Below, one piece after another: positions 15,004 through 60,819 of a stretch of DNA of 64,000 nucleotides (within the stretch, counting starts at the first letter, position 1; each line of letters starts with the position of its first letter). A model generated the notes under the pieces. That model saw only the letters and a list, made by a program, of their open reading frames with translations. It was not told where the DNA came from and did not search any database. This stretch comes from an uncultured bacterium (lineage in GTDB: Bacteria; UBA8481): assembly GCA_964499705.1 (NCBI GenBank), contig CAZCME010000001.1, positions 8,943 to 72,942 of the forward strand, written 5' to 3'. The position numbers were made by a program, and so were the translations under genes.

Positions 15004-15011
15004 CATTCGTT

Positions 15012-15070: not shown

Positions 15071-15197
15071 GAACACTGGAAAAGGAGGTATGAAGTAACA
15101 GCAGTCAACGCGGCAGGACACACAGATACGAACGAAGCTTCGCTCCCGGTCATCGACCGGCGGCGACATCGAAGCAAAGAAAGTCGGAGGGTTTAAC

Positions 15198-16385: not shown

Positions 16386-16419
16386 TTTCCCGGACGGTAA
16401 GATCGAATGGACACGTTTT

Positions 16420-16450
16420 CGCCCCGCACTTCGGTGCGGGGCGTTTGTCC
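16420..16450 (+). terminator. rho-independent terminator after ftsZ
   Basis: GC-rich hairpin cgccccgcac-ttcg-gtgcggggcg followed by TTTGT. Confidence 0.6.
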
Positions 16451-16504
16451 GGAGATCGAACATTAATTTTCGAAAAACGGCTTAACCCTTTACAATGAGT
16501 GCCC

Positions 16505-17593: not shown

Positions 17594-17726
17594 ATTGACC
17601 ATCCGGAGGCCCGACCGTGCGATGGCGCGCACGATCGTGACGCGTGTGCGGAAGCATTCGCACCTGCGGCCGAGGTTGCGGATCGTTCCAGCGCGTGCGA
17701 ATCCTGGAATCACCCGCGACTTCGTG

Positions 17727-49800: not shown

Positions 49801-52800
49801 TCCGACGGCCAGCTCGACTACAACTTCGACATTGGCTTCAACGCCGACGGCAAGGTGAACTCCGCTCCGGATACTCCGACGTGGATTGCGCCGGCGGACG
49901 GAGCGAACCTCACGTCGCCCCTGATCACGTTCCAGTGGAACCAGTCGGACACGGACGGCGCGATCGCGGTCAGTCCCTATTATGAGATCCAATACGCGAC
50001 GAACTCCGGCTTCACCACCGGGCTCGTCATCGATTCCGGCGCGGGCAACCTGACGTCGCGCGACAGGACATTCTCCGGCAGCGGCACGTACTACTCCCGC
50101 GTCCGGATGCGCGACGACTTCCTCTGGTCGGGCTGGTCCGCGACACGGACATTCTCCGTCGTCGATTCGACCGCGCCCGACGGCAGCGCGTCCGACTGGC
50201 TCGGCGTCGCCTCGACGACGGCCAACGAGAGCACGGTCGACAAGGGCGAGTGGATCTGGACGGACGCGAACACGGATGAGCGGACGGACGGCACGGATCC
50301 GGACGGAAACTACGACCTGAAGGAACTGCGCCTGAAGGGTGACACGAGCTATCTCTTCATCCTCGCGAAGTTCCGCGACATCACCACGACGACGCTGCCG
50401 TACCTGGCGATCGGCGTCGAGACCGACCAGATCTACGGAAACGGCCAGAAGTGGTTCGGTAACGGCTCCGACCTGCAGATGGACACGAACGCCTGGCGCG
50501 AACTCGAGCTCGTGATGAACAACAACAACGTCGGATTCTATTCGACGATCAACTCCTGGGTCTGGAACGACAGCGGAGCACGGACAATCTCGACGACGAA
50601 CGACCTGATCGAAGCGCGGTACGTCTGGTCGGATCTGAAGATCGTCCTGCCGAAGAAGCTCCGGTTCTCGGCGATGACGGCGGAGAACGACGCGGGCAAC
50701 GTGAAAGATCGGTACAACGCGGACGCGCTCGACGTCGTGACGCAATACAGCGGCAACACGTGGGGCGAGGTCCAGGATACCGTTCTCAACTTCTGGGTCG
50801 ATCTCGACTTCAACCGGAGCGGGCTCATCAATACCCGGCCCGGCAAGCCGTCGCTCATCGCTCCGCTCGCCGGCGTCACGCTGAACACGTCCACCGTCTC
50901 GTTCCAGTTCGCATGGAGTGACGCGGACTCCGGCGCGATCGCGAATCCGAAGATCGAGCTGCAGCTCTCGACCGATTCGGCGTTCCAGACGATCGTCGCC
51001 ACCTGCGTGGAGTTCGATCTCGACACGCTCTGCGCAGCGTCGCTTTCGTCCGGAGGCAACTTCTGGTGGCGCGTCCGGACGTTCGACGACTTCGAGACCT
51101 CGGTCTGGTCTGACACGCGCGACTTCCGCGCCGATTTCTACGCGGCGCCGATCACGCTCCTGGAGCCGCCCGACGGCATCGACACGAACACGTCCTTCGT
51201 CCGCTTCGCGTGGACGCAGCCGCTCGATGACCTCTCCGGTCTCGATTCGTTCCTCCTGGAGATCGGCACATCATCGACATTCGATACCTACCAGCAGACG
51301 CGGACGGTCGATTCGAATTCGTACCAGCTCCTGAAGCAGGGCGAGACGGTCTACTACTGGCGCGTCCGCGCGGTGGATCGAGCGGGCAACATGGCGACGA
51401 GCGCGACGCGGTGGCTGAGGCTTGACACGTCCGTGACGGTGAGCGCGGTGACGCCGACAGCGGGCGCGGCAACCAACGATTCGACGCCGACATACACGTG
51501 GACGGGCAACGGTTCGGTCTACGTCTTCCAGCTCGCGCCGGACGCGACCTTCTTCACGCTGCAGGATTCGGTGACGCTCCCCGGAACGACGTACGCTCCG
51601 AGCGGAGCGACGTATCACGCGCATGGTGGACACTACTGGCGCGTTCTCGCGTGGGACACGGTCGGCAATTCCGCTTCTACCGCGAGCCGCGCGATCGGAA
51701 TCGACACGTCGGTCAGCGTGAATTTCGGCGCGCCGGCGAACTCCACCGACACCAACCAGCAGCGGCCGGTCTTTTCATGGAGCGGCGATGCGGACACGTG
51801 GACGTTCGAGATCTCGCGCTTCACGGACTTCTCGGTTCTCTACGACAACACGACGACGGCGGCGCTGACCTATCAACCGGGCGCCAATTACGCGGGTGAC
51901 ACGTACTACTGGCGCGTCCGCGGACAGGACACGTTCGGGAATACTGCCACGGCCACCTACCGGCAGATCGTCATCGACACCGGCATCACGGTAAACCAGA
52001 CATCGCCGATCGACGGCGTCGAGACGAACGATGCGACGCCGACCTTTGCCTGGACGGGCGATGCGGACACGTACATCGTGGAGATCGCGACGGACGCCGG
52101 ATTCGCGGCGATCATGGACTCGAAGACGACGAACGGTCTCTCCCATACCCCGGCGGCGAATTACAACCAGGGACTCTTCTACTGGAGGATCCGCGCTCAG
52201 AAGACGGCCGGCTCTTCCAAGACGACACCGACGCGCACGTTCCGGATCGACACGTCCGTCGTCGTGACGCTCGTTTCGCCCGTCGCGAATCTTGAGACGA
52301 GAAGCCTCCGTCCCGTCTTCACATGGACGGGCGACGCGCTCTCATACAACTTCCAGGCTTCGACGTCGGCGACCTTCGCGACGCTCGTCGACACGACGAT
52401 CTCTTCCGGTTTGATCCGCACCGCCGCCGCCGACTATCGCGCCGACACCTACTACTGGCGCATTGTAGCGCGTGACACGGTCGGTAACATCGAGACGTCC
52501 CCGGTCCGGATCCTGATCGTCGATACCGGCGTGACCGTTTCGTCCTCCACGCCGGCTGACGGATTCCGCACGAACGATTCGACTCCGACGTTCACGTGGA
52601 CGGGGACAGGGGAGACGTACATCCTGCAGGTGTCGCGCTTCACGGGATTCGACACGTTGACGGACGTCGTCACGACGGCGGCATCGACTTATACGCCATC
52701 CGCTTACTACGGAGCCGCAGCGTATCACTGGCGCGTGATCGCTTCGGACGACGCCGGCAATATCGAGACGTCCGTCGACCGGATCGTCACGATCGATACG

Positions 52801-55800
52801 TCGATCACGGTCGCACTCTCCTCGCCGTCGAATGTGTTCCGGACGAACAGCACGGCTCCGGCATTCGCCTGGACCGGCGACGCCGACACGTGGACACTGC
52901 AGGTGGCGCGCGACGCGGCCTTCACGGCGATCGTGGAGAACCGGACCCAGACGCTTGCGTCCTTCACCGGAGCCGGTTACAGCGCCGACACGTACTACTG
53001 GCGAGTTTCCGGCGCCGACTACGCCGGGAATCGCGACACGACTTCGTCACGCTCATTCACGGTCGACACGACGGCGGCGGTGACGCTCACGTCTCCCGCC
53101 GCGTCGACGGTGACGAGCGACTCGACTCCGTCTTTCACCTGGACGGGCGACGGCGACACCTTCACGATCCAGGTCTCGTCCTCGTCCACGTTCGCGACCA
53201 TCCAGGACAGCGCGATCTCGGGCGGCTACACCTATACTCCGTCCGCCCGTTACTACGGTTCCGGCGTCTGGTACTGGCGCGTTCTCTCGCGCGACGTCGC
53301 GGGCAACGCGGAGACGACCGCGTCGCGGACATTCACGGTGGATACGGGCGTCGTCGTGACGCTCTCGACGCCCGCCGACGGCGCCCGCGTCAACTTCGTG
53401 ACGCCGACGTTCGCCTGGACGGGTGACGCCAACATCTACGTGATCCAGGTCTCGACCGCATCGACATTCGCCTCTCTCGTGGACTCGAAGACGACAACCG
53501 CCTTGAACCATACGCCGGCCTTCGCCTATCCCGCGGACACGGTCTATTGGCGCATCGTCGGTTTCGATACGGTCAATGTCGAGACGAGCGCATCGCGCGT
53601 TCTCGTGATCGACACGCAGGTGGCCGTCTCGCTCACGTCTCCCGCGAACGGATCCCGGACGAACGACTCGACGCCCGCCTTCGCGTGGACGGGCGGCGGC
53701 GACACATGGAACATCGAGGTCTCCCGCTTCTCCAACTTCGGATCGCTTCTTGACGCCGCCACCCTGGCCGGGACGACGACCTACACTCCGGCGCAGTACT
53801 ATCCGGCGGATACGCTGTACTGGCGGGTGACCGCGCGGGATTCCGTCGGCAATTCCGCGACCACGGCGTCCCGCTCGCTCGTCATCGACACCTCCGTCGT
53901 CGCTGCGCTCTCGTCGCCCGACGATCTCTTCCAGACGAACGACACGACGCCGGCGTTCGTCTGGACGGGCGACGCCCAGACCTGGCTCCTTCAGGTCTCG
54001 CGCTTCACGAACTTCAGCGTCCTCTTCGACTCGTCCGCGACCGCGTCCACCAGCTACACGACGACGATCCTGTATCCGACGGATACCTATTACTGGCGCA
54101 TCGCAGGGCAGGACGACGTGGGGAATCGCGAGACGACCGCATACCGGACGCTCATCATCGACACCGGCCTGGTCGTCAACCTCGCGACGCCCGCGGCGAA
54201 TCTCGAGACGAAGAGCCTGAGGCCGGTCTTCTCATGGAGCGGCAACGCGGACACGTACATCTTCCAATTGAGCGCATCGGCAGCGTTCGCGACGATTCTG
54301 GACAGCCAGACGGGCGCGACCGCGACCTTTACGCCCGTGGCCGATCGCGCCGCCGACACGTACTACTGGCGCGTCGTGGCGAAGGACAACGCGGGCAACA
54401 CGGAGACCTCCGCGTCGCGCGTTCTCTTCATCGACACGGCACCGCCGTCCGCCCCGGCGCTCGCGTCCCCCGCCGACAGCGCGACGACGCGTAACGTCAT
54501 CACGGTCTTCACGTGGACGGGCGATGCCGATTCGTACGCCATCGAGCTGGCGCGCGACTCCGTCTTCGCTTCCGTCGTCCTCGCGGAGACGAGGCCCACC
54601 GTTTCGGCGACGTCGCCTCAGCTCGGGCGCGACACTTACTGGTGGCGCGTACGCGGCTACGACGACGCGGGCAACGCGGGACCCTGGAGCGGCATGCGGG
54701 CTCTGTTCGTCGATACGCTCATCACGGTATCGGGCACGACACCCGCGGACGGCGCGCGGACGAACGACTCCACGCCGACCTTCACCTGGACCGGCAACGG
54801 CGACACGTACACGATCGAGGTGTCGCGCCTCGCCAATTTCGCCGCGCTCACGATCCAGGCGACGACGACGGCCTCGACCTTCACGGCCGGAGGTTCGCTC
54901 GGCGCCGACACGTACTACTGGCGCGTCAGCGCCGTCGATTCGTTCGGCAATGCCGGCGTTTCGACGACCCGTTCCTTCGCCGTCGACACGTCCGCGACGG
55001 TGACGCTCGCGACGCCCGCGGACAATACGGTCACGAACGACACAACACCCTCCTTCGCGTGGTCGGGCGACGGAGATACCTGGACGATCCAGGTCTCGCG
55101 ACTCGCCAACTTCTCGACGATCTACGACGCGTCGACCTCCGCCGTGGCGACATACACGACGGGAGGCTATTACGGAGCGGACACGTACTACTGGCGTGTC
55201 GTCTCGCTCGACCAGGCGGGCAACTCGGAGACCTCCGGATCGAGGATCATCGTGATCGATACCGCGGTATCCTCGACGCTCGCCACGCCGGCCGACAGCA
55301 CCCGGACGAGCGATTCGACTCCCTCCTTCACATGGACCGGCTCGGGCGACACGTACCGGCTCGATATTTCGAAGTCGATCACGTTCGCGCCGCTGCAGGC
55401 GACGGCCACGACGTCGGCGGTTTCGCATACGCTCACGACATACCTCGGCCAGGACACTTACTACTGGCGCATCGTTTCGCTCGACGTGGCCGGCAATACC
55501 GATACGTCCGCGGGCAGGATGCTTGTGATTGACACGTCCGCGACGGTGTCGCTGACGTCTCCCGCCGCAGGCACACGGACGAACGACTCAACGCCCGCGT
55601 TCTCATGGAGCGGGGAGGCGGATACATGGACGTTCGAGATCGCCCGGATCGCGGACTTCTCCGCGCTCGTGGAGAGCCGCGTCACCGCGGCGACGTCCTA
55701 TACGCCCTCGACCCTCTATTACGGCCATGACACGTATTACTGGCGTGTCTCGGGATCCGACGTCGCGGGTAATTCCGCCGTCGCCGCCTCCCGGACGCTT

Positions 55801-58800
55801 TACATCGATACGCTCATCTCCGTCAGCGCATCCTCGCCCGCCGCGAATGCGGAGACATTGGTGCTGCGGCCGGCCTTCGCCTGGACGGGAGCAGCGGACT
55901 CTTACCGGTTCGACCTCTCGCGGTCGGCGACCTTCGCGACGCTCGTGGAGACATCCGCGATGACGGCGCAGGGACTGACGATCGCCTCGAGCCTGACTGC
56001 GGACACGTACTATTGGCGCGTGGCGGCCTGGGATGCGGCCGGCAACGCCGACACGACCGCGGCGCGGACTCTCTTCGTCGACACGGGCGTCACCGTTGCG
56101 TCGGCGCCGCCCGCCGACAATACGAGGACGAACGATTCGTCGCCCTCCTTCACGTGGGCGGGCGACGGCGATTCATACACGTTCCAGATCGCGCGCGACA
56201 CATCCTTCGGTGCGATCGTCGATTCGAGAACCACGGCTGCGGCGGCCTACACGACCTCCTTCTACTACGGGGCGGACACGTATTACTGGCGCGTGCTGGC
56301 GACGGATGACGCGGGCAATCTGGCGTCTTCCGCCTCGCGGCTCATCGTGATCGACACGGGCGTCGTCATCGCGCTTTCATCGCCCGCCGACGGCGCGCTC
56401 TCGAACGATTCCACGCCGGCTTTCACGTGGACGGGCGACGCGGATACGTACGTTCTCCAGGTATCCAGCACGTCGACGTTCGCTGCGATCTTCGACTCGA
56501 GAACGACCTCGGCGACGACATATACGCCTTCCTCGGGATATGCGACCGACACCTACTGGTGGCGCGTGATCGGATACGACGCGCTGGGCAACGTTGAGAC
56601 GACGGCATCCCGGACGTTCCGGCTCATGACGGCCGTTGCCGTCAACCTCCTGACGCCGTCGGACAGTTTCTACGCGAACGTGCTCTCCCCGTCTTTCACG
56701 TGGACCGGCACGGGCGACACGTACACGTTTCAGCTCTCGTCGTCCCCGACGTTCGCGACGCTTGCGGAGAGCGTCCAGCAGCCGACGCTCTCGAGAACCA
56801 CCGCTCTCTCGCTGGGAGCGGGTGTCTGGTATTGGCGCGTCATCGCCCGCGACGTGGCCGGGAACACCGACACGGCCGTCGCGCGCGCGCTCGTCATCGA
56901 CACCTCCGCTTCGGTCGCACTGGCGACGCCGGCGGATGCGACGCGCACGAGCGATTCGACGCCGTCCTACTCATGGACGGGCGACGGGGACACATGGACG
57001 GTTCAGATTGCGCGCGACGCAGGCTTTGCAACAATCGTGCAGCAGTCGACGGTGAACGTTCAGACATACACCGCGACGATCCTCCCGGAGGACACGTACT
57101 ACTGGCGCGTGATCGCGAGAGACAAAGCCGGCAACTCCGACACGGCTGCCGCTCGCAGCTTCATCGTCGATACCTTTGTCAGTGTCGCGCTCGATACGCC
57201 GGGAGACCTGTACAAGTCCCGCGACGTCACGCCGAACCTTTTCTGGACCGGCACGGGCGATACGTACCGCGTGGAGATATCCCGCTCGGCGACCTTCGCG
57301 CCGCTTTACGAGACAGCGACTCTTGCGGCTTCGCCCTTCAACTCTGCCGTCGTTTACCCGGGCGACACCTATTACTGGCGCGTCATCGCGACGGACCAGG
57401 CGGGCAACTTCGACACGACAGCGGCGCGCCGGTTCATCGTCGACACAACGGCGCCGGACACATCAACGACTGTGACGCTCACGACGCCCGCCGATCAGCA
57501 CGACACGAGCGACTCGACGCCGACCTTCCTCTGGTCGGGCGACGCGGACACGTACATCATCCAGGTCGCGCGTGACACGTCGTTCGCGGCGCTTGTCGAC
57601 GCAGCGACGCTTTCCGGCGCGGTCTCGTATACGACGGCCGGATACTATGCGCAGGATACATACTACTGGCGCGTCATCGGATTCGACGTTGCCGGCAATT
57701 ACGACACAACGCCGGCCCGCCGCATTGCGATCGATACAACGGTGAACGTGGCTCTCGCGTCGCCGTCCGATGCCATTCAGACGCTCGATACGCGTCCGAC
57801 GTTCACGTGGACCGGCGACGGCGACACATATCTGCTGGAGCTCGCCTTCAACGACAACACCTTTGCGACGCTCCATGATTCCCAACTGAGCTCGGCGCTG
57901 ACCTACCGTCCCTCCGCCGCGAAATACATGGGAGCCGGGATCTACTACTGGAGAGTGACGGTCTGGGATCGGCTCGGCAATCAGAAGACCGCGTCCACCC
58001 GGTCGCTCTTTATTGACACGGAAGTCCGCGTCACGCTCTCGACGCCTGCCGACGGCGATTCGACGACGAACAACCGGCCGACGTACACCTGGGCGGGCGA
58101 CGCGGACACGTACTGGCTCCAGGTCTCCACGAGCGCGGTCTTCGCCACGATCTACGATTCGAAGTATCAGGCGGCGAACAGCTACACGCCGGGCTTCTCG
58201 TCATCCGGCGGCACTTATTACTGGCGCGTGACCGGCTACGATCAGGCCGGCAACATCTTCACAACGACCGGCCGGTCGCTGCTCATCGTGAACGCGCTGA
58301 CGCTCTCGCTCACAGCTCCGGCCGACAACATCCGCACGACCGATTCGACGCCGTCCTTCACCTGGACGGGCAACGGCGATTCCTACACGTTCGAGATCTC
58401 CAAATCGTCATCGTTTGCGACGACGATCGACACGAAGAACCTTACGGTGACGAATTACGCGCCCGCGGGCTACTACGGAGCCGACACGTACTACTGGCGC
58501 GTCATCGGCCGCGACTCGGCCGGCAACACCTTCACGTCGCCGACGCGCACGCTCGGCATCGACACCATCGCGGCGGTTTCCCTGACGTCGCCGGCGAGCG
58601 GCACGCGGACGAAGGATACGCGCCCGATCCTGGTGTGGTCCGGCGACGCGACGTCGAACGCGAGCGACGTCTTCACGGTCCAGGTCTCGACGTCCCTCTC
58701 CTTCGCGACGATCGCGGCGACGACGTCCGGCTATGTCTCCTCCTACCAGCCGACGCTTGTCGCGGATACATACTACTGGCGCGTGCTTCTCGTCGATGCG

Positions 58801-60819
58801 GCGGGCAATGCGGACACGTCCGCGACCCGCATTCTCGTGATCGACACGATCGCGCGCGTCACGCCGACGGCTCCCGCCGACGGGCTCCGCACGAACAGCA
58901 CGACGCCCGCTTTCACATGGACCGGCGACGGCGACGCCTTCACAATCCAGGTCTCGAAGGTGAATACGTTCGCGACGATCGCGGCGACAACGACCGGATC
59001 GATCTACAGCTATACGCCGACGCTTGCCGCGGATACGTATTACTGGCGCATCTTCGTCACGGACGCCGCCGGCAACGCGGACACATCCGCGACGAGATCT
59101 CTCGTCATCGACACGCTGGCCTCGGCGACATTGACCGTCCCGGCGGATAACCTCCGCACGAGCGACTCGCGCCCGATCTTCACATGGACGGGCGACGGAG
59201 ATACCTTCACGATCCAGGTCTCGAAGGCGAACACGTTCGCTTCGATCGCGTACACGAATACGTCCTCCGTGATGACATACCAGACGACGCTCGCGACGGA
59301 CACATACTACTGGCGTGTGCTCGCTTCGGACGCGGCCGGCAACGCGGGCGTTTCGGCCACGCGCACGCTCGTGATCGACACGAGCGTCGTCGTGACGCTC
59401 ACATCACCTGCAGATCTCTTCGCTCAGACGGAGACGAAGCCGACATTCACATGGACCGGCGACGCGGATACATACATCCTTCAGATCTCGACCTCCTCCT
59501 CCTTCGCGACGATCTTCGACTCGAAGACGACCTCGTCTACCTCTTACACACCTGCGCTCGGCTACGCGCTCGACACGTACTACTGGCGCGTTACAGGTCA
59601 GGACAACCTCGGCAATGTCTTTACGACCGCGTCGAGAACGCTCTATCTTGTCCTCATTCCGCCGCCTCCGGCGCCGAACGATTCGACGACGTCCTTTGCC
59701 GACGTCATAACGGTCTCGAGTTCGCTCGGTTCCTCCGGTCTCCGCGTGACCGGCACGTCCATTACGCTGTCGACCGGCTTCAGCGATTCCGTTCTCTCCG
59801 TCGTTTTCGAATATCGGACGGTGATGGACGCGACATGGCGCTCGTGCACGATCGCGACGAACAGCGGCTCGAACCCGGATACGAAGGGGCCGCTCTGGAG
59901 CATCTACTGGGATGTCTCGGCACTGCCCGAGGACACGTACTACCTCCGCGCGACCGCGACCAAGCTGGACGGAACGATGGACTCCACACCCTCCACGATC
60001 AGCCTGATGAAGAGCGCGATATTGCCGCAGATCCAGGAGTGGCACGACACGGCGCTGAACCGGCACATCCGCCGCCAGGCCGTGATGCGCGCGACATGGG
60101 ACACGATCATGATTGCCGACGGCACGATGCTCATTATTCCGCCGACCGCGATTCCGGGGACGGACAGCATGTGGGCGCGGGTCACGGCCCATGCCGCGGC
60201 TCCTGCGGAAGCGCCCGCTCCGGGCGCCGGCAGCGTTCTCGTAGCCGGAACATCAGGCACGTATCGCCGTTTCGAATTCGAGAACGGCCAGTCGACGTTC
60301 AACGATTACGTCACGATCGGGATGCCGTATTCCGAAGCCGGGCTCACCGTCACCGAAGGCGAACTGGCCATCTACTATTACGACGCGGGCCTCCAGAGCT
60401 GGGTCAAGACCGACAGTTGCTGGGTGGACACGGTCCGGAACATGGCCTGGTGCCGCGTCCGCCACTTCACGGACTTCGCCGTCTTCGGAGCCGCCGCCGC
60501 CGGAAATCTCGGCAGCGTCATCGTCTATCCGAATCCGTTCGTTCCCTATGACAACGACGTCCAGACCGGCCAGCCGTTCGTGCGGGGCGACAACACGACC
60601 GGCATCATCTTCTCGCGGGTCACATCCACGGTCGACATCGACATCTACACGATCGCGGGCCGCAAGGTCTCCACGATCCATGCGACGAACACGGGCGGCA
60701 ACGTCCAATGGGATGTCCGGAACGACGAAGGCCGTGAAGTCGCCTCCGGCGTCTACTTCGCCATCATCCGCGCGCCGAACGGCGAGCGGAGCGTGCAGAA
60801 GTTCATGGTGATCCGATGA
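31837..60819 (+). CDS. giant secreted multi-modular alpha-glucan-active protein (9,660 aa): signal peptide, GH13 alpha-amylase catalytic domain, CBM48-like x2, GH57-like catalytic module x2 plus one divergent GH57-like module, CBM25/26-like x2, CBM20-like x3, CBM9-like region, >25 FN3 domains, 32 tandem ~91-aa FN3-like repeats, C-terminal T9SS-type sorting domain
   Basis: Single uninterrupted ORF in the six-frame track. N-terminal signal (MKTRRSPSQPSYALLASLFHRFILLASLFLVVTSVEA). GH13 regions I-IV (..DAIWISNPF.., ..GFRVDAIKHV.., ..FGEAFS.., ..FADNHDVARF..). GH57 regions (..FLWHMHQP.., ..LPHDGDNYGG.., ..SCYWYWDG..) occur twice. C-terminal ..VIVYPNPFVPYDN....GIIFSRVTSTVDIDIYTIAGRKVSTIHATNTGGNVQWDVRNDEGREVASGVYFAIIRAPNGERSVQKFMVIR is T9SS-CTD-like. 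Confidence 0.8.
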   Translation: MKTRRSPSQPSYALLASLFHRFILLASLFLVVTSVEAWTLADQQMPTSWAGHSYTPSPGDWRYFGVYQVMTDRFYDGNPSNNTAHNYSTDFGAPSGQLPTEGNRRTIGGDFQGMKENIDYIKSLGYDAIWISNPFMGTEANGYAPTTYNCIDPKLGTVQEFRDLVDAAHARGMYVIVDMVGNHFANWFTDHAFNGAGYGTPTYATDASKRYGATFNDAIGEGNFHNYGNISNWNAPWDLEHGELVGLDDLITEDAYVRNYVIDHYVNMIKAFDIDGFRVDAIKHVNINDWALICSGIRAGAAAVGKSNFYMFGEAFSGSHDAVGYYTGNKAGTGTKIMNGMMDYAMYQQGVPWMLFNDQWGLKNWVAGMNNASYDMGQGNGTTVWNFGNMNVHFADNHDVARFLSSGDWDRMLSVQGMLTMIEGLGAMYYGGEQAFNTAGTDGRGAYGALYDHPFQWDNAVGDNVNMSFWLYKKIAKMMAARRRIGAGLGTGTTLLDPQNGIFAFRRGNDAFVAINGTNMTQSATFNVGLSGTWTNLVDGSSGSGPSLAISLPKYEVGVWIRNIADPVLEPMVTDVSPANGALTGATTLTITFDQNMDPASTIAAASIAPDPGGTWNVTGATLTRTGMTVQPGVTYVVKVAKTATNATGKAMYGGFVSRFKGSYSSPVVNGNVITFNYQGGATAKVKGNWAITGGSNGVYTAAYNAAWTGPAVDMIQSNGLWTATITLTENTVFEYGFEINGAWTNDPVNTNHAVNGNDRFTSGAGTPAGPDSVPPVFGGLTSATDAGTSGKVNLAWSAATDTSTPIKYNIFWTNNAADSVAKSYVDMTPNAVVSSATSYQVTGLTNGAQYWFVVRAEDAKTGAGGPGGGNQETNLVDRTATPTGLASPIVNGNVVTFAFSGGGLGKVKGSWIVTGGSNGNYTANYDSTWNAGATTNMVLSGSVWRCTFTLPANTTFEYGFEIDSAWTNDPLNTNHAANGNDKFTTGAASNGDTTPPSFAGLATAVDSGTGGRVSLAWAAGTDATGPVRYNVYWTNSAAAQVSKSYVDGTPDATTTSTSYLASGLTNASQYWFVVRAEDSAFGSGPNGGNQDTNLVDQTATPSGASNTAPTANAQNTTTPQNTAKVITLTGSDPEGSSLTFAIATQPSNGTLSAITAINATSASVTYTPNTNFNGNDAFTFTVNDGLLTSASANVGVNVVSGARPPIYISFLWHMHQPKYWPDEPATATEGRTDYGFSIRTIHTDRTGPYTSWPIDAIQNAMNAGLANSGAQVTFTGSLTENLNDYEAAGWAFGGWKNRWREGMQWRTALNNPRLDITQFPYFHVLQPLIGDKWTREHIRLFQNMYQGTFSAAAQSKGMFPTENCVSDFLIPAWKDNGIDWVIVDNVHFDRTALGYPWSSGGNLYEMNGADILNPNPNDWVQLNGLWAPTKISARWGHQPHYMQYVDPTTGTVRKMIAVPGSRYLGNEDARGGYGALQYDAVLSQLEPFNTDPAHPILVVLPHDGDNYGGGTDGYYHGNFSAMISWLQSNPTRFQLITIQDYLSMFPPDQSDVMHIEPGGWSGADNGDPEYKKWNGDPAADGYSPDRNSWMTLMAAENRVEHAERLQPTNGNVATAIRKMMVGMTSCYWYWDGSPPWDYHVTRACNEAVGLVDPIIAGGGADLQPPTVFLPQRDPYNPGGKEWNIQQASNLKVFTPAYDVSGLRRVELKYRVDDDGNNPIADVANEVYAGGAGVGAWQTLSMTVDAFPASRSNPQPIYRANIYAATIDGTNLANKLVDYYVEAEDNAGLITKTVIQHVKWGGTGGGGGGTTIWSPSAPTSSDTITVTWTKASKLHWGVNNWVAPNAVYWPAGSVAWDAQSIESPLDGSFKIVIGPFNNPAQTVTEVNIVFHNNDGTWDNNGGLNWKIPILVDTAPPARPATPILTSGNTTIDLTWAANGEADLNGYRLYRALAAAGPHSLIATLARTATTFNDSGLSNGTTYHYVLRAYDNAANTSDSSISTSATPSGVDVTPPSITSGLSALSLQQAVRITWNRNLESDMDSYVIFRRTSSGVFTQAALADSVTSTYTDTGLSAGETYTYLIRARDRSGNLADSSATATAVAQPNTPPAAPSGFYALPWDSSVRLRWNRNTEGDFAGYRVFRAGVTGGPYTQISGLLTDTQFTDSGLANGTTYFYVLAAVDTAGGQSSYTTEDSTTPRPLINVLFRVDVNGLSGVTIVRIAGDLFTPSWIPTANPLRDLGGGIWGETFAMPISTALQYKYVTNGANWENDFATASGKREITVVSMTADSRMFVNNKWNVAGDPAPTSPPGLQATATSQKVTLRWSNSFEYDIVGFNLYRSTTSGSGYSLIASLGTETGYNDTNVINGDTYYYVMAARDQVGQIGLFSAQVQATPGANQPPAVPNGLNATAGDRRVTLVWNANAEVDLAGYHLYRATVAGGPYAKINTDTILGTSYVDTGVTNGDTFYYVLRSVDIYDSQSAYSTEDSATPRAPDTTAPPVPTGLVATPASGQVTLNWNHVVAADSTGYNVFRGISPSGPFGKINGSLASTNSYVDLTVSNGVWYYYNVRSVDMVNNQSESSATVSAQPQTAVGGIEDRTIDGSFFDWKYTDVRALDTYVDNNYLWWDGFANHPVGYDPSRDLTAVYSREGTSDYFFRVDFQDLALGVEQTNMNLYLALDWNSATGQAFFPDFVDAQTSQPWELIIAIYDGGTTGKTLWKPDWTTIASPNVRASFNSQWDAVEIAVPKSHLTNLGWVSGQKIHLQVFTTRDGTNSGAGEVASLPDITDAMPDSYTQDAYLNGVISTESTVGRAKYSVILHGNQSLNPGGDINKWIYDAVAVTPNGNPSGYHRALQTMEQCNTPVNIHVSGSLAAVMDMANTTNPLNDGPTFNQRIADFVDDDWNDGRKGHIIGGVYAEHIMPYFRDDTSIGITINSRAQELKTDVLTSFYSLSRHPKVFWIPERVVDGQTLDNVILDRRTNTPTGYTTTILDNLTHIYYWLGSSFAHTNEFKLLRINGVNVFQINDHYDDRKFWAQDNAANYEVRTRLLDLARAADQEQVMIVFDDWEAYAGRSFASPNTIHDGPDNFDVSMKWIAQHPWVEVVTLEQLLDRNWTPVDAGTNLTYPKSTYQWLLHASEMGYDNWYWGSAQEENFSQQIPLLTGDRYSSPAVLNPIPSGKRYGSIWDAGTILRDVWSDIQALPGNQLKRLSEQGYIHLIYETAWHDEDISDKAWDPVTRVFTNPDNTWDGTSYWAYDLHGHVRHMGYLAEAARWADSVSAGAQSALTVVQTKDLDYDGESEYILKNSRVFGVFENDGGRMVLGVSYDTAQGGFVMVGNIITNAPSEGEEEDGSRRISAFADMNNSAYINANYSVATGTDSIVFTSPDGLIRKDIRLQHGSGTFEAAYRENLTGPVYIRNGLIANLHEMTYTGERYVQIVGATNGSYYGVKNTRAGGEIRLNFGGTTFNSAFTDGTMDNTNSPFVKAVEVTGNGNFTMSLTLNTDDTSVILDTPPVPSGLSATGGNGQVYLSWSPVSSASLAGYHVYRGTVNGGPYSKISDTRAQTNYTDTGVSNGTTYYYVVKSVSVRGASSANSNQATATPNPPTDTPAAPTGVTATAGNTEITVNWTATDTTLAGWHVYRSAAQGGPYTQVNGSILTGGSFTSTALTNGTRYYFVVKAQSLSGLLSAYSSEVSETPSASANVTTVLTAPSAGQTLTGAVPFTATCTAPQGVNRVEFKVDGALAGTATTPEQAGGDSAAGVWGVGSKTITIDGVNTAGEWTTACRIARDPAWDHANVMNGAWATHETPFDYTDLYAAWDATYLYIGIQIVDVTDIKDPSNAGSSNGTPARAMNLPQWLAFDVAPGGYTGVNGAGANTAEYDAWKKGQLFGGGTGVDTQIYFASNFWQGPFLIPYRNGFFPDSNTIGKQLGVFHGASGQGLAGTEVIGLDGTNFVAQGHNTGRNSFFELKIPLSYLGGPDLATRTIGIMVGQGDGTNASGVDCIPDDPATLNTQGVEVYNSPKEWADVDIFTVPFAKIGTSTGGSGASNTYRVIVNTANYQDGARVVTATGIANGAGGSASSSANVTFANAAPPPPAPTGVVATPASTLVALNWSAATGATGYNVYMATVSGGPYTKQNTSLVAGTQYSIPSLTNGTTYYFVVTAVNGQGLESPYSSQVQGIPAAGVNVVFTVDMRNAGAYSSVQVAGNQFTPAWTPSATPLANNTGGTWTVTRSFPSGTQIQYKYVKDSTGWEADFATTSKNREITVADQGGGVMYVDNVWGQEGNAAPAGPTGVTLTAAQSSITVSWTRSTSFDVISHCVYRSQTSGGPWNLVHETSTVNSWVDTGLTNGTRYYYVVRAKDRANQYSAYSTEVNATPGNDPAPAAPTGLAATAGVNQIALSWNPNTEPDHSGYNVWYTVSGGNGVPVKINGAIIPTAGYTHTNLDPNLTYTYYITCVDSGANEGPASATVARQPLNGGSQQPIYIAYQWHMHQPIYWPYENIRTTYTTRTNYAYVRDVLAWPDRVDAYTHNPVDAVANHMASKPNWGAQISYSGSLQENINNMAAASDGYFPGWNNRYAEGHGWTTTLGNRRVDLVSFGYHHPLLPFIDYRDARLQIQMHRRITTTTFGNPYSLGMFPAESAFSERIIPQLLDEGLQWVMVDNLHLDHCNKNFPWAAGEKINPPNRADAVNPPQGTYINLSCQTNTNYNVSPWGLRPHYAKYVNPNDGTERKMIIVPLERSLGYDDSYGDRTPQARLQAFLPHNTDPAHPLLVVLAHDGDNAGASGFRYYVETMGWLAGADPNQFRFTTVQDYLQMFPPDVNDVVHITDGSWVGADLGDQELKKWLGDPYQSGVVNFEQGFSSDWNSWMVITAGKNRMLTAEAIAPASGDIGGIVYKNGNNTDKAWAEFLVGEASCFWYWDGTVQWDEQPSRAVANAMVYADPIIASSPGTDNIAPNIFSLQREPYNPGATEAFKGVQPSDFQVFTFIYDVNAVSNATLYYRIDADGENPIGDNANEIYAGGAGVGPWVALTMETRVYAMPPAAQIQPQYRAEIYRAFINGLSNTLVDYYVTATDGRGNVSKSDIYHCYIGDPNSGGGGGRWTPANPTSSDTITITGDKAGKLHWGVNGWVAPNGVYWPSGTTTYDAQSVESPLDGTFKIVIGPFNNAAQAVTRVDFVFHYNDGTWDANSGLNYRIDITNDTTPPAQPTGFTSSPGNGFVQLGWTLGAGDVSSYKIYRGTTSGGPYSQVVSTGRVATYTDTAVVNATTYYYVLRSADATGNLSDTTTQISATPSGVDTTPPAKPSNVNATASEFGATVSWTANNEYDLAGYRIYRSITAGSSHVLIETTSLTSRSHSGLNPADTYYYVIVAFDSSGNASDTSTEKAIKPLAAQPPAAPTGVAITAGNAVCTITWNANGEPDLAGYNVYRAQGSSTAPYVKVNGSTVVVTNYANSGLTNDTTYYFRIRAVDTAGAESDSSAIVSATPVAGITVAFRVNVTGFSPGVVQIAGNQLTPTWTPSANPMTNEGANIWKIEKTYPVGTVIQYKFVRDTTTWESDFPAGASTNRDITVVDQGGGKMYVNNTWNVDGDAIPATPTGLQATAGAGAVNLTWNAVTVFDLDGYCVYRATAVGGPYAKIANQITLTSRNDSGLVNGTTYYYYVTAEDSAGQASGASSTVNATPIIPDTTSPAVVSGVDATVQGSTIRVAWNPNGETDVVGYRVYRSASANGAYTQLNGTIETDSDYSDSTVSVNTVYHYRVRAQDASGNLSDTSSADSASVTGNPIGVDGDPSEWTGTGPTTDRTYSIINGQWIWRDPPADQRTDATDPDSNYDLTEVRFTGDVNGVSFLGKFTDISASNLPFISLAVDKDQLAGSGEEWFSSNTDMTMADTGRRDYEIVINSNKTGYYGVGDNNWNWSDTGSSFISPGNNVIEANFQWYSLGITLPKLVRFTMGVAQHDGAGSAAEIFGSDALDAVTTATGNTWTEISDGQLDYNFDIGFNADGKVNSAPDTPTWIAPADGANLTSPLITFQWNQSDTDGAIAVSPYYEIQYATNSGFTTGLVIDSGAGNLTSRDRTFSGSGTYYSRVRMRDDFLWSGWSATRTFSVVDSTAPDGSASDWLGVASTTANESTVDKGEWIWTDANTDERTDGTDPDGNYDLKELRLKGDTSYLFILAKFRDITTTTLPYLAIGVETDQIYGNGQKWFGNGSDLQMDTNAWRELELVMNNNNVGFYSTINSWVWNDSGARTISTTNDLIEARYVWSDLKIVLPKKLRFSAMTAENDAGNVKDRYNADALDVVTQYSGNTWGEVQDTVLNFWVDLDFNRSGLINTRPGKPSLIAPLAGVTLNTSTVSFQFAWSDADSGAIANPKIELQLSTDSAFQTIVATCVEFDLDTLCAASLSSGGNFWWRVRTFDDFETSVWSDTRDFRADFYAAPITLLEPPDGIDTNTSFVRFAWTQPLDDLSGLDSFLLEIGTSSTFDTYQQTRTVDSNSYQLLKQGETVYYWRVRAVDRAGNMATSATRWLRLDTSVTVSAVTPTAGAATNDSTPTYTWTGNGSVYVFQLAPDATFFTLQDSVTLPGTTYAPSGATYHAHGGHYWRVLAWDTVGNSASTASRAIGIDTSVSVNFGAPANSTDTNQQRPVFSWSGDADTWTFEISRFTDFSVLYDNTTTAALTYQPGANYAGDTYYWRVRGQDTFGNTATATYRQIVIDTGITVNQTSPIDGVETNDATPTFAWTGDADTYIVEIATDAGFAAIMDSKTTNGLSHTPAANYNQGLFYWRIRAQKTAGSSKTTPTRTFRIDTSVVVTLVSPVANLETRSLRPVFTWTGDALSYNFQASTSATFATLVDTTISSGLIRTAAADYRADTYYWRIVARDTVGNIETSPVRILIVDTGVTVSSSTPADGFRTNDSTPTFTWTGTGETYILQVSRFTGFDTLTDVVTTAASTYTPSAYYGAAAYHWRVIASDDAGNIETSVDRIVTIDTSITVALSSPSNVFRTNSTAPAFAWTGDADTWTLQVARDAAFTAIVENRTQTLASFTGAGYSADTYYWRVSGADYAGNRDTTSSRSFTVDTTAAVTLTSPAASTVTSDSTPSFTWTGDGDTFTIQVSSSSTFATIQDSAISGGYTYTPSARYYGSGVWYWRVLSRDVAGNAETTASRTFTVDTGVVVTLSTPADGARVNFVTPTFAWTGDANIYVIQVSTASTFASLVDSKTTTALNHTPAFAYPADTVYWRIVGFDTVNVETSASRVLVIDTQVAVSLTSPANGSRTNDSTPAFAWTGGGDTWNIEVSRFSNFGSLLDAATLAGTTTYTPAQYYPADTLYWRVTARDSVGNSATTASRSLVIDTSVVAALSSPDDLFQTNDTTPAFVWTGDAQTWLLQVSRFTNFSVLFDSSATASTSYTTTILYPTDTYYWRIAGQDDVGNRETTAYRTLIIDTGLVVNLATPAANLETKSLRPVFSWSGNADTYIFQLSASAAFATILDSQTGATATFTPVADRAADTYYWRVVAKDNAGNTETSASRVLFIDTAPPSAPALASPADSATTRNVITVFTWTGDADSYAIELARDSVFASVVLAETRPTVSATSPQLGRDTYWWRVRGYDDAGNAGPWSGMRALFVDTLITVSGTTPADGARTNDSTPTFTWTGNGDTYTIEVSRLANFAALTIQATTTASTFTAGGSLGADTYYWRVSAVDSFGNAGVSTTRSFAVDTSATVTLATPADNTVTNDTTPSFAWSGDGDTWTIQVSRLANFSTIYDASTSAVATYTTGGYYGADTYYWRVVSLDQAGNSETSGSRIIVIDTAVSSTLATPADSTRTSDSTPSFTWTGSGDTYRLDISKSITFAPLQATATTSAVSHTLTTYLGQDTYYWRIVSLDVAGNTDTSAGRMLVIDTSATVSLTSPAAGTRTNDSTPAFSWSGEADTWTFEIARIADFSALVESRVTAATSYTPSTLYYGHDTYYWRVSGSDVAGNSAVAASRTLYIDTLISVSASSPAANAETLVLRPAFAWTGAADSYRFDLSRSATFATLVETSAMTAQGLTIASSLTADTYYWRVAAWDAAGNADTTAARTLFVDTGVTVASAPPADNTRTNDSSPSFTWAGDGDSYTFQIARDTSFGAIVDSRTTAAAAYTTSFYYGADTYYWRVLATDDAGNLASSASRLIVIDTGVVIALSSPADGALSNDSTPAFTWTGDADTYVLQVSSTSTFAAIFDSRTTSATTYTPSSGYATDTYWWRVIGYDALGNVETTASRTFRLMTAVAVNLLTPSDSFYANVLSPSFTWTGTGDTYTFQLSSSPTFATLAESVQQPTLSRTTALSLGAGVWYWRVIARDVAGNTDTAVARALVIDTSASVALATPADATRTSDSTPSYSWTGDGDTWTVQIARDAGFATIVQQSTVNVQTYTATILPEDTYYWRVIARDKAGNSDTAAARSFIVDTFVSVALDTPGDLYKSRDVTPNLFWTGTGDTYRVEISRSATFAPLYETATLAASPFNSAVVYPGDTYYWRVIATDQAGNFDTTAARRFIVDTTAPDTSTTVTLTTPADQHDTSDSTPTFLWSGDADTYIIQVARDTSFAALVDAATLSGAVSYTTAGYYAQDTYYWRVIGFDVAGNYDTTPARRIAIDTTVNVALASPSDAIQTLDTRPTFTWTGDGDTYLLELAFNDNTFATLHDSQLSSALTYRPSAAKYMGAGIYYWRVTVWDRLGNQKTASTRSLFIDTEVRVTLSTPADGDSTTNNRPTYTWAGDADTYWLQVSTSAVFATIYDSKYQAANSYTPGFSSSGGTYYWRVTGYDQAGNIFTTTGRSLLIVNALTLSLTAPADNIRTTDSTPSFTWTGNGDSYTFEISKSSSFATTIDTKNLTVTNYAPAGYYGADTYYWRVIGRDSAGNTFTSPTRTLGIDTIAAVSLTSPASGTRTKDTRPILVWSGDATSNASDVFTVQVSTSLSFATIAATTSGYVSSYQPTLVADTYYWRVLLVDAAGNADTSATRILVIDTIARVTPTAPADGLRTNSTTPAFTWTGDGDAFTIQVSKVNTFATIAATTTGSIYSYTPTLAADTYYWRIFVTDAAGNADTSATRSLVIDTLASATLTVPADNLRTSDSRPIFTWTGDGDTFTIQVSKANTFASIAYTNTSSVMTYQTTLATDTYYWRVLASDAAGNAGVSATRTLVIDTSVVVTLTSPADLFAQTETKPTFTWTGDADTYILQISTSSSFATIFDSKTTSSTSYTPALGYALDTYYWRVTGQDNLGNVFTTASRTLYLVLIPPPPAPNDSTTSFADVITVSSSLGSSGLRVTGTSITLSTGFSDSVLSVVFEYRTVMDATWRSCTIATNSGSNPDTKGPLWSIYWDVSALPEDTYYLRATATKLDGTMDSTPSTISLMKSAILPQIQEWHDTALNRHIRRQAVMRATWDTIMIADGTMLIIPPTAIPGTDSMWARVTAHAAAPAEAPAPGAGSVLVAGTSGTYRRFEFENGQSTFNDYVTIGMPYSEAGLTVTEGELAIYYYDAGLQSWVKTDSCWVDTVRNMAWCRVRHFTDFAVFGAAAAGNLGSVIVYPNPFVPYDNDVQTGQPFVRGDNTTGIIFSRVTSTVDIDIYTIAGRKVSTIHATNTGGNVQWDVRNDEGREVASGVYFAIIRAPNGERSVQKFMVIR
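31960..33530 (+). other. GH13 alpha-amylase-type catalytic domain of the giant protein
   Basis: Conserved regions at 32161..32240 (GDFQGMKENIDYIKSLGYDAIWISNPF), about 32662..32690 (GFRVDAIKHV, nucleophile Asp), about 32770 (FGEAFSG, acid/base Glu) and about 33016..33045 (FADNHDVARF). Confidence 0.8.
35441..36840 (+). other. GH57-like catalytic module 1 of the giant protein
   Basis: HMHQP at 35476..35490. ..MFPTENC.. (putative nucleophile Glu region). VVLPHDGDNYGGG at about 36328..36366 (GH57 region IV HDDGEKFG-like). SCYWYWDG at 36711..36734 (region V CNDAYWHG-like). Confidence 0.6.
40270..41300 (+). other. divergent third GH57-like module of the giant protein (possibly non-canonical or non-catalytic)
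   Basis: ..SVILHGNQSLNPGG.. in place of HQP. ..VFDDWEAYAG.. at 41023..41049 in place of HDDGE. ..YDNWYWGS.. at 41257..41280 in the region-V position. Confidence 0.4.
45270..46700 (+). other. GH57-like catalytic module 2 of the giant protein
   Basis: QWHMHQPIYW at about 45301..45330. ..MFPAESAFSE.. VVLAHDGDNAGAS at about 46153..46191. SCFWYWDG at 46582..46605. Collinear with module 1. Confidence 0.6.
50830..59650 (+). repeat. in-frame tandem array of about 32 FN3-like repeats (period ~275 bp / ~91 aa) inside the giant gene
   Basis: Each unit carries ..TP.F.WTGD(A)DTY..QVS....FA......T....YTP.....DTYYWRV.A.D.AGN..T...R.L.IDT.. The (Y/W)(Y/W)WR(V/I) core occurs 32 times between about 51060 and 59580 at 265-285-bp spacing. 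Nucleotide copies differ mostly at wobble positions. Confidence 0.85.
60530..60816 (+). other. T9SS-type C-terminal sorting domain (Por secretion CTD / FlgD-Ig-like) of the giant protein
   Basis: Last ~90 aa: YPNPF...(G)IIF........DIDIYTIAGRKV.........G..V.WD..N..G..VASGVYFAII....G....QKFMVIR is the canonical CTD pattern. Confidence 0.6.

What the first reader, a model, noticed from the sequence alone, without database searches (positions are those of the whole stretch)
50830..59650. 32-unit in-frame tandem array of ~91-aa FN3-like repeats (about 8.8 kb) with strict Y-Y-W-R-V core
The periodicity is about 275 bp. Every unit keeps W-T-G-D-(A)-D-T-Y, Q-V-S, F-A, Y-T-P, D-T-Y-Y-W-R-V, D-x-A-G-N and I-D-T positions, while nucleotide copies diverge mainly at third positions. 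This indicates an old array maintained by purifying selection rather than a recent slippage expansion. Such arrays act as rigid stalks or spacers, or as multivalent binding surfaces. Here it would project the catalytic N-terminal half about 100 nm from the cell surface if the CTD-anchored end is at the membrane. It is also an assembly hazard. Copy number may vary between strains.
Basis: seen in the sequence. Interest (0 to 1): 0.7.

Follow-up and report, generated by a model that had tools for sequence, protein, structure and literature searches.

The report
Ancient 32-domain stalk in giant amylase
The 8.8-kb repeat is real: 32 diverged FN3-like (Pfam Big_13) domains form the probable stalk of a 9,660-residue surface starch-degrading enzyme of a groundwater Hydrogenedentota-like bacterium; such arrays are common, and this one is old and stable in length.

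Summary
Window 50842-59649 encodes 32 head-to-tail units of about 91 aa inside one 9,660-aa ORF (31837-60819). A 33rd, diverged unit lies just upstream. Units average 42% aa and 55% nt identity, and the longest exact DNA repeat is 25 bp. Pfam assigns the array to Big_13. The AlphaFold model (pLDDT 96) is a 7-strand FN3-like sandwich, and a 3-unit model best matches SiiE. The array sits between a starch-degrading head (GH13, two GH57, CBM20) and a conserved tail plus T9SS sorting domain. A PorV/PorQ gene overlaps the stop codon. An ortholog whose tail module is only about 50% identical keeps the units in the same order, including two irregular junctions 11 units apart. An independent, 99.94%-identical groundwater contig reproduces units 1-13. 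The array is therefore ancient and fixed, not a slippage product and not a variable-length "Periscope" array. It most likely acts as an extended spacer of roughly 100 nm; this function is inferred, not shown. The domain family is very large (36,296 cluster representatives, arrays of up to 63 units). This is a new member of a known kind and of modest interest.

The parts
31837..60819 (+). Single 9,660-aa ORF: giant secreted multi-domain alpha-glucan-degrading protein. By eye, the N-terminus (aa 1-37) looks like a Sec signal peptide.
   Evidence: domain map
32038..33147 (+). GH13 alpha-amylase catalytic domain (aa 68-437), part of the enzymatic head
   Evidence: PF00128, 132 bits
35464..36051 (+). 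First GH57 domain (best Pfam stretch aa 1210-1405). The block aa 1203-1810 is 43% identical to aa 4480-5100.
   Evidence: PF03065; internal duplication
44392..44649 (+). CBM20 starch-binding domain (aa 4186-4271)
   Evidence: PF00686
45304..45834 (+). Second GH57 domain (aa 4490-4666)
   Evidence: PF03065
49189..49866 (+). X1: domain of about 225 aa with no Pfam match (aa 5785-6010), paralogous to X2
   Evidence: X1 and X2 are 42% identical. An ortholog fragment, P0047, has the same X1-unit-X2-array order.
49876..50160 (+). Diverged 33rd unit (aa 6014-6108), between X1 and X2
   Evidence: unit HMM, 19.1 bits, i-E 6e-8
50149..50841 (+). X2 (aa 6105-6335), immediately before the array
50842..59649 (+). 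The array: 32 tandem FN3-like / Big_13 units (aa 6336-9271), mostly 91 aa each
   Evidence: PF19077 E 5e-99. AF2 single unit pLDDT 96.1; 3-unit model pLDDT 93.3.
54433..54450 (+). Irregular proline-rich junction between units 13 and 14 (DTAPPS...), a candidate hinge that is conserved in orthologs
   Evidence: giant IDTAPPSAPALASPAD, L007 IDNAAPAVPTPVAPAD, P0023 IDTTPPAAAVLVSPAD
57442..57456 (+). Junction between units 24 and 25, longer than the standard one (DTTAP-DTS...). It is conserved in L007 and lies 11 units after the first irregular junction in both species.
58561..59376 (+). Units 29-31, among the most similar units (60-66% aa). Units 30 and 31 have no positional partner in the L007 ortholog, so this is the youngest duplication, yet dS is still about 0.9-1.1.
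59650..60591 (+). Conserved tail module (aa 9272-9585) with no Pfam family. In relatives it also occurs as a stand-alone protein of 525-612 aa next to a PorV-like gene.
60592..60810 (+). T9SS type A sorting domain (CTD), aa 9586-9658
   Evidence: TIGR04183, 24.9 bits against a cut-off of 23; weak FlgD_ig match
60816..62273 (+). PorV/PorQ-family outer-membrane protein gene. Its start overlaps the giant gene's stop codon (ATGA).
   Evidence: NF033709, 178.3 bits against a cut-off of 90; 44% identical to the syntenic gene in L002

Best explanation
The array is the shaft of a cell-surface enzyme. The gene encodes a Sec-exported, T9SS-sorted protein of 9,660 aa. Its N-terminal two thirds carry alpha-glucan-degrading and starch-binding modules (GH13, two GH57, CBM20, many ordinary fn3 spacers). 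Its C-terminus carries a conserved tail module and a T9SS type A sorting domain, which in characterised systems is cleaved and replaced by a covalent anchor to the outer membrane.

Between head and tail lie 32 (plus 1) FN3-like beta-sandwich domains. They are joined by linkers of about 5 residues with a conserved D-T. They most likely form an extended, rather stiff rod of roughly 100-130 nm that holds the amylolytic head away from the cell envelope. The conserved residues are of two kinds. The first is the classical FN3 core: the Trp in strand B and Y-x-W-x-V in strand F. The second is Asp/Asn/Thr in the linker and in the BC, FG and A-B loops, which by FN3 topology face the inter-domain junctions. 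This pattern suggests SiiE-like junctional Ca2+ sites.

The units are deliberately dissimilar (42% aa). Their order has been kept since before the divergence of species whose tail modules are only 50% identical. It is therefore a fixed-length stalk with two conserved irregular junctions, not a recombining variable-length one.

Shown: anatomy, fold, age, collinearity, genomic context. Inferred: surface anchoring, extension and rigidity, Ca2+ binding, spacer function.
For: - Array anatomy and conservation.
- Pfam: Big_13, E 5e-99; 24 of 32 single units match.
- Head, tail and context: GH13, GH57 and CBM20; TIGR04183 above its cut-off; PorV/PorQ gene overlapping the stop codon; synteny of tail module plus PorV-like gene in relatives.
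- Age: dS about 1, dN/dS 0.2-0.5. Unit-order alignment with L007 scores 177 against 92 +/- 9 for shuffled order. Landmark junctions are conserved.
- Head independence: the same array + tail + CTD chassis carries heads that are not homologous to this one in P0054, P0055 and P0034.
- Precedent: SiiE, the Big_13 archetype, is a 175-nm rod stiffened by Asp-lined Ca2+ sites at its domain interfaces (PMC6272769; PMC5466336).
Against: - There is no experimental or proteomic evidence that the protein is made, anchored or extended.
- The 3-unit model has pTM of only 0.60, and its TM-scores to SiiE are about 0.3, so the inter-domain geometry is not confidently predicted.
- Ca2+ binding is inferred only from conservation and topology.
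- Only one T9SS component (PorV/PorQ family) is visible in the window, and T9SS anchoring chemistry is unknown in this phylum.
- Y69 and R71, which by strand alternation should be exposed, are highly conserved and unexplained by a pure spacer role.
Confidence: 0.6

Rival explanations
1. The array is a multivalent binding surface rather than a passive spacer. It would bind carbohydrate or act as an adhesin, with each unit contacting alpha-glucan, another polymer, or another cell.
For: The best structural matches of a unit are accessory sandwiches of carbohydrate-active enzymes: a heparinase II/III-like enzyme, CelAly B1, CbhA Fn3-like modules and rhamnosidase N-domains. There are weak SusE and Ig_Rha78A_N/DUF4962 profile hits. 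R71 is invariant and Y69 nearly so, and both are probably exposed. Positional orthology of units could mean that the units are not interchangeable.
Against: No CBM family matches the units. Most conserved positions map to the FN3 core or to junction-facing loops. The same chassis is attached to unrelated, non-amylase heads, so its role is independent of the substrate of the head. Dedicated CBM20 modules already sit in the head.
Confidence: 0.2
2. It is a Periscope-type stalk: a tandem array whose copy number expands and contracts by homologous recombination, tuning how far the head projects.
For: The general architecture (functional head, repeat stalk, C-terminal anchor) and the Big_13 family are both listed for Periscope Proteins (PMC9704523). 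Orthologous arrays do differ by a few units. Another family member, P0022, contains near-identical adjacent units.
Against: The defining feature, highly identical repeats at the DNA level, is absent: 55% mean nt identity, longest exact repeat 25 bp, dS about 1 even for the closest pair. Unit order is conserved between orthologs whose tail modules are about 50% identical. A 99.94%-identical contig has identical units 1-13.
Confidence: 0.04
3. The array, or its count of 32, is an assembly artefact: collapsed, expanded or chimeric repeats.
For: Repeat arrays are known to fragment short-read assemblies (bioRxiv 10.1101/2023.11.21.568195). Four related contigs end inside their arrays.
Against: The units are effectively unique sequence, with the longest exact repeat at 25 bp. 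The reading frame is open for 29 kb. An independent contig from ENA ERZ1292634 matches window 44862-54564 with 6 mismatches. The L007 ortholog shows the same unit order and the same landmark spacing.
Confidence: 0.03

Closest known systems
SiiE of Salmonella enterica (53 BIg domains; archetype of Pfam Big_13, PDB 2yn3/2yn5)
   Same: Both are giant surface proteins built from tandem beta-sandwich domains of about 90-100 aa in the same Pfam family, with short linkers. Conserved Asp residues lie in the linker and loops, where SiiE has its junctional type I Ca2+ sites. SiiE is the best multi-domain structural match of the 3-unit model (PMC5466336, PMC6272769).
   Different: SiiE is a T1SS substrate and an adhesin with no enzymatic head. 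This protein has a Sec signal plus a T9SS CTD and carries glycoside hydrolases. Sequence identity is only about 17%, and single units mostly fall below the Big_13 gathering score. Ca2+ binding is not shown here.
Periscope Proteins (SasG, Rib, Sgo0707 and others; PMC9704523)
   Same: A single-chain rod of tandem folded domains is thought to project an N-terminal functional region from a C-terminal anchor.
   Different: Periscope arrays are defined by near-identical repeats and strain-to-strain length variation. This array is highly diverged, its units are positionally orthologous between species, and its length is essentially fixed.
Fn3-like (X1) modules and N-terminal sandwich domains of carbohydrate-active enzymes (C. 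thermocellum CbhA 3pdd; heparinase II/III-like 6ljl; rhamnosidase 3w5n; Pfam Ig_Rha78A_N and DUF4962)
   Different: Those modules occur singly or in pairs next to a catalytic domain, not as a 32-unit array separated from the catalytic modules.
Uncharacterised giant T9SS-CTD repeat proteins of candidate phyla (e.g. Ca. Hydrogenedentota RMH57425.1 = P0023; Ca. Lindowbacteria OGH63894.1 = P0022 and OGH59977.1 = P0024)
   Same: They contain the same unit family at about 100 bits per unit and a T9SS CTD. P0023 has the same tail module and CTD as the window protein, and P0022 a partly similar tail.
   Different: All are annotated only as hypothetical or T9SS-target proteins, and most are truncated by contig ends. 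The window appears to give a complete example with the head attached.
Titin-type eukaryotic FN3/Ig arrays
   Same: They are long arrays of FN3-fold domains whose neighbours are only about 30-45% identical. The Periscope review links low identity between neighbouring repeats to a lower misfolding risk. The weak best PDB sequence hit of the unit profile is a titin FN3 domain.
   Different: Titin is intracellular and eukaryotic, acts as an elastic element, and has no secretion or anchoring signals.

Membership tests
Pfam Big_13 (PF19077) bacterial Ig-like domain | Whole-protein score at or above the gathering threshold (27 bits) | tested here: met
   325.9 bits, E 5.2e-99, 14 stretches in the C-terminal half
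Pfam Big_13 (PF19077) bacterial Ig-like domain | Individual units recognisable as Big_13 | tested here: inconclusive
   24 of 32 units match at E <= 0.01 (best 3.6e-8). For the one unit whose score was tabulated, the score was 22.7 bits, below 27. Five units also hit Ig_Rha78A_N.
Pfam Big_13 (PF19077) bacterial Ig-like domain | Fold like the SiiE BIg domains | tested here: met
Pfam Big_13 (PF19077) bacterial Ig-like domain | Junctional Ca2+ sites formed by conserved Asp residues (SiiE type I) | not testable with these tools
   Conserved D1, D29/D31 and D76/N80 lie in the linker and in the BC and FG loops, as in SiiE (PMC5466336). No coordinates or metal modelling were available.
Canonical fibronectin type III (Pfam fn3, PF00041) | Sequence match to PF00041 | tested here: not met
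   No unit hits fn3 at E <= 0.01, whereas the ordinary fn3 domains of the head do. The unit HMM gives only faint scores on those fn3 domains (up to 12.7 bits).
Canonical fibronectin type III (Pfam fn3, PF00041) | Seven-strand FN3 sandwich with a core Trp in strand B and Tyr/hydrophobic residues in strand F | tested here: met
T9SS type A cargo protein | C-terminal sorting domain (TIGR04183 Por_Secre_tail) at the extreme C-terminus | tested here: met
   24.9 bits against a cut-off of 23, aa 9586-9658 of 9660. The CTD is 76% identical to that of P0023, which NCBI names a T9SS C-terminal target domain protein.
T9SS type A cargo protein | N-terminal Sec signal peptide | tested here: inconclusive
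   The N-terminus MKTRRSPS...LLASLFLVVTSVEA|W looks like a signal peptide by eye. No predictor was available.
T9SS type A cargo protein | T9SS machinery encoded in the genome (PorK/L/M/N, Sov, PorU, PorV...) | tested here: inconclusive
   Only a PorV/PorQ-family gene is present in the window (NF033709, 178 bits). The rest of the genome was not available.
Periscope Proteins | Tandem repeats highly identical at DNA and protein level | tested here: not met
   Mean identity is 42% aa and 55% nt (maximum 66% aa). The longest exact repeat is 25 bp.
Periscope Proteins | Repeat-number variation among closely related strains | tested here: inconclusive
   The only near-identical sequence found covers units 1-13 and shows no difference. 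Distant orthologs differ by about 3 units. No strain panel was found.

The most novel reading that the evidence does not exclude
The array + tail module + T9SS CTD, together with a dedicated PorV/PorQ-like partner, may be a reusable 'long-reach display chassis' of Hydrogenedentota and neighbouring candidate phyla, onto which unrelated enzymatic heads are grafted. Here the head is a 6,000-aa multi-amylase; elsewhere it consists of long regions not homologous to this head. The stalk would not be a string of interchangeable spacers. It would be a defined structure whose unit order and two hinge-like junctions (11 units apart) have been kept between orthologs with only about 50%-identical tail modules. 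That would imply position-specific roles, such as defined bending points, lateral assembly into a surface layer, or docking sites for partner proteins.
Probability: 0.2. Interest if true: 0.55.

Novelty: new member of a known kind. Interest (0 to 1): 0.33.

Why it matters
The window gives a complete, apparently correctly assembled example of a giant T9SS-sorted surface enzyme from a poorly known phylum. All related records found are truncated inside their arrays. It also gives a clear contrast to the Periscope paradigm: a bacterial stalk whose repeats are kept dissimilar and whose order and length are conserved over long evolutionary time, as in titin-type arrays. If the rod model holds, these groundwater bacteria would hold a starch- and glycogen-degrading machine about 100 nm or more from the cell. 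That bears on how such organisms forage for polymeric carbon. The array itself, however, belongs to a very large and already catalogued domain family.

Tried and rejected
- The word-indexed homolog search with the 32-unit alignment returned only 5 weak hits. It was uninformative and was superseded by the exhaustive HMM search.
- The exact-sequence look-up of the downstream PorV-like protein found nothing.
- The metagenome-contig scan with the tail-module alignment found only distant hits at 26-36% identity. No strain panel is therefore available for a copy-number comparison.
- A first 3-unit alignment built from overlapping windows was mis-registered by MAFFT (488 columns). It was replaced by non-overlapping triples.
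- PDB sequence searches gave only marginal hits, both for the unit profile (best E 0.0047, titin) and for the tail module.
- Model coordinates are not exposed, so the stalk length, the junction contacts and the exposure of Y69 and R71 could not be measured.
- Literature searches for Hydrogenedentes/-ota together with T9SS or amylase found nothing relevant.
- Rejected: recent slippage expansion (dS about 1), a Periscope mechanism, an assembly artefact, and canonical fn3 membership by sequence.
Full report
**1. Observation**

The window contains one uninterrupted ORF, 31837..60819 (+), of 9,660 aa. Downstream of aa 6300 the motif [YWHF]WR[VIM] occurs exactly 32 times, at spacings of 89-97 aa and mostly 91.

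Cutting at the conserved D-T junction gives 32 units spanning aa 6336-9271, nt 50842-59649. An HMM built from the units finds the same 32 domains at 50-116 bits each. It also finds a diverged 33rd unit at aa 6014-6108 (19 bits) and faint similarity (up to 13 bits) to the ordinary fn3 domains elsewhere in the protein.

P11, W26, F43, W70, R71 and R87 are invariant. D1, T2, P22, G28, D76, G79 and N80 are at 90% or more. The two tyrosines of 'YYWRV' are present in 25 and 28 of 32 units, and units 1-2 are deviant, so 'strict' is somewhat overstated.

**2. Age of the array**

- Mean pairwise identity is 42% aa and 55% nt. Third positions are 47% identical, against 38% expected from composition at GC3 85%.
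- Nei-Gojobori estimates give a median dN of 0.57 and dS of 1.10. The closest pairs (u21/u32, u30/u31, u29/u30, u16/u20) still have dS 0.7-1.4, with dN/dS 0.2-0.46.
- The longest exact DNA repeat in the 8.8 kb is 25 bp, and TRF sees only units 29-31.

There has therefore been no recent slippage or gene conversion. The fold-determining positions are under purifying selection, while most other positions have drifted.

**3. Fold and family**

- Pfam assigns the region to Big_13 (PF19077, E 5e-99), with weaker Ig_Rha78A_N and DUF4962 signals. Scanned singly, 24 of 32 units hit Big_13 and none hits fn3.
- AlphaFold2 on the 32-row alignment gives a 7-strand sandwich with pLDDT 96.1.
- A 3-unit model has pLDDT 93.3 but pTM 0.60, with about five non-strand residues between consecutive domains. 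Its best Foldseek hits are SiiE BIg50-52 aligned over all three domains (E 2e-11), though at TM of about 0.3.

'FN3-like' is thus correct at fold level, and Big_13 is the sequence family.

The conserved residues split into two groups. One is the classical FN3 core (W26 in strand B, Y68-x-W70-x-V72 in strand F, F43, and L/I in strand G). The other is Asp/Asn/Thr/Gly in the linker (D1, T2), the BC loop (D29, D31), the FG loop (D76, G79, N80) and the A-B region (D13, T17, N18, D19). These positions are equally conserved in 59 units from three orthologs.

By FN3 topology these loops face the inter-domain junctions. In SiiE the type I Ca2+ site is formed by one Asp at the end of domain n-1 and two Asp residues of domain n, and it stiffens the rod (PMC5466336; PMC6272769). 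A comparable site here is an inference.

**4. Context within the protein and the locus**

- Head: GH13 (aa 68-437); two paralogous GH57 blocks (about aa 1203-1810 and 4480-5100, 43% identical); CBM20; Big_5, Big_9 and Big_7; and many fn3 domains.
- Just before the array: X1, then the diverged unit, then X2. X1 and X2 are 42% identical and have no Pfam match.
- After the array: a 314-aa tail module with no family, then a T9SS type A sorting domain (TIGR04183, 24.9 bits against a cut-off of 23).
- The next gene (60816-62273) overlaps the stop codon and is a PorV/PorQ-family protein (178 bits against a cut-off of 90).
- Other neighbours (LptE, holA-like, FapA, GH3, a glucoamylase-like protein, solute-binding proteins) indicate a diderm chromosome.

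**5. Relatives**

The tail module has 40-55% identical homologs. Most of these are stand-alone proteins of 525-612 aa. In two loci they lie downstream of giant repeat proteins and upstream of a PorV-like gene that is 44% identical to the window's.

A genome scan places the relatives in Candidatus Hydrogenedentota MAGs. Three of them have the fused form (array + tail + CTD), and in each the contig begins inside the array:
- L005: at least 12 units.
- L007: at least 26 units.
- P0023/L016: at least 21 units.

P0025 is an exact substring of the window protein (aa 4343-7576). Its 9.7-kb contig comes from ENA ERZ1292634 (record name Hain_H51_02um, coverage 4). It equals window 44862-54564 except for 6 silent mismatches, and it independently confirms units 1-13.

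**6. Positional orthology**

I aligned unit order by dynamic programming on double-centred identities. L007 against the window scores 177, against 92 +/- 9 for shuffled order. L007 units 4-25 pair with u7-u29 and unit 26 pairs with u32. u10, u30 and u31 have no partner. L005 against L007 scores 113 against 62 +/- 10. P0023 shows weaker but visible collinearity.

Idiosyncratic junctions are conserved:
- The proline-rich junction after u13 is found in the window, L007 and P0023.
- The junction after u24, which is longer than the standard one, is found in the window and L007, 11 units further on in both.
- The 'IDTEVRV' junction after u26 and the D-T-less junction after u27 recur in L007, L005 and P0023.

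The tail modules of these proteins are only about 50% identical. The array architecture therefore predates these lineages and has changed by only a few units.

**7. How common the family is**

An exhaustive profile search of 1.84 billion representatives finds 36,296 proteins at E <= 1e-3 and 3,054 at E <= 1e-30. In the top set plus cluster members (164 proteins), arrays have a median of 15 units and reach 63 (P0174, 7,641 aa) and 54 (P0185). A T9SS-like CTD ends 39 of the 164.

Several have the same layout of head, array, tail of about 480-530 aa, and CTD: P0030, P0033, P0054 and P0055. In P0054, P0055 and P0034 the tail module is homologous to the window's, but nothing matches the GH13 or GH57 head. 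The closest named members are 'hypothetical' proteins of Ca. Lindowbacteria and a 'T9SS C-terminal target domain-containing protein' of Ca. Hydrogenedentota.

**8. Interpretation**

The best-supported reading is a fixed-length, extended stalk between a C-terminal T9SS anchor and an N-terminal amylolytic head. At the SiiE value of 3.3 nm per domain (175 nm for 53 domains, PMC6272769), 32-33 units give about 105-110 nm; if each domain rises somewhat more, up to about 130 nm.

It is not a Periscope Protein. That class is defined by highly identical repeats and by strain-level length variation (PMC9704523), and the array fails the identity criterion. The low identity between neighbours (mean 44%) resembles titin-type arrays, where dissimilarity is thought to limit misfolding (as discussed in PMC9704523).

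A binding role cannot be excluded: Y69 and R71 are conserved and probably exposed, and the nearest folds are accessory domains of carbohydrate-active enzymes. It is disfavoured, however, because the chassis is independent of the head and no CBM signature is present. An assembly artefact is effectively excluded.

**9. Verdict**

The stalk function is plausible but untested. The predictions about copy-number variation and assembly hazard are mostly not borne out. Giant surface proteins with Ig-like repeat shafts are a recognised class (PMC11573180; bioRxiv 10.1101/2023.11.21.568195). This is a new member of a known kind, of modest interest. Its points of interest are the complete multi-amylase architecture, the conserved unit order, and the modular stalk-tail-CTD/PorV chassis.

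Noticed in passing
window 31837-50841 (aa 1-6335 of the giant ORF): The head is itself remarkable. It is about 6,300 aa, with one GH13, two paralogous GH57 blocks (43% identical over about 630 aa), CBM20, alpha-glucan-water-dikinase-like Ig domains, about 20 ordinary fn3 domains, and long stretches (aa ~2590-3500 and ~3700-4090) with no Pfam match.
   Followed up: partly
window 60816-62273: A PorV/PorQ-family outer-membrane protein gene starts 4 nt before the giant gene's stop codon (ATGA overlap), which suggests translational coupling of a T9SS shuttle or anchor component with its cargo. It has an extra C-terminal region of about 150 aa beyond the PorV profile, and this region is conserved in L002.
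   Followed up: partly
window 59650-60591; loci L001, L002, L003, L006, L008: The family-less tail module also exists as stand-alone proteins of 525-612 aa, several per MAG. These lie next to PorV-like genes and downstream of other giant Big_1/LTD repeat proteins. This suggests a conserved anchoring cassette that is sometimes fused to its cargo and sometimes separate.
   Followed up: partly
window 49189-50841: Two paralogous domains of about 225 aa with no known family (X1 and X2, 42% identical) bracket a diverged 33rd unit just before the array. The same order is present in the ortholog fragment P0047 (55-61% identical).
   Followed up: partly
window 49523 and 50177-50213, compared with locus L015: The Hainich groundwater contig differs from the window at only 6 silent positions in 9.7 kb. 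Five of them are clustered within 37 nt, in X2 just upstream of the array. This may be a small recombination tract or microdiversity.
   Followed up: no
protein P0022 (Ca. Lindowbacteria OGH63894.1): This family member contains adjacent, nearly identical units (for example two consecutive copies of VVVDTQVSVSLTSPSDTYETNDTTPSFTWTGDGETYTFQISTST...). Some arrays of this family therefore do undergo recent duplication, unlike the one in the window.
   Followed up: no
window 4165-12771 (- strand) and 1580-4137 (+): Upstream there is a glycan-utilisation neighbourhood: GH3 with a PA14 insert, a glucoamylase-like protein (PF10091) with a discoidin domain, a 1,241-aa protein with discoidin (F5/8 type C) domains, and two ABC solute-binding proteins.
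   Followed up: no
window 12723-18725 (- strand): Five consecutive ORFs of 311-472 aa (some overlapping) have no Pfam or NCBIfam match. Given the 62% GC content, some may be spurious.
   Followed up: no
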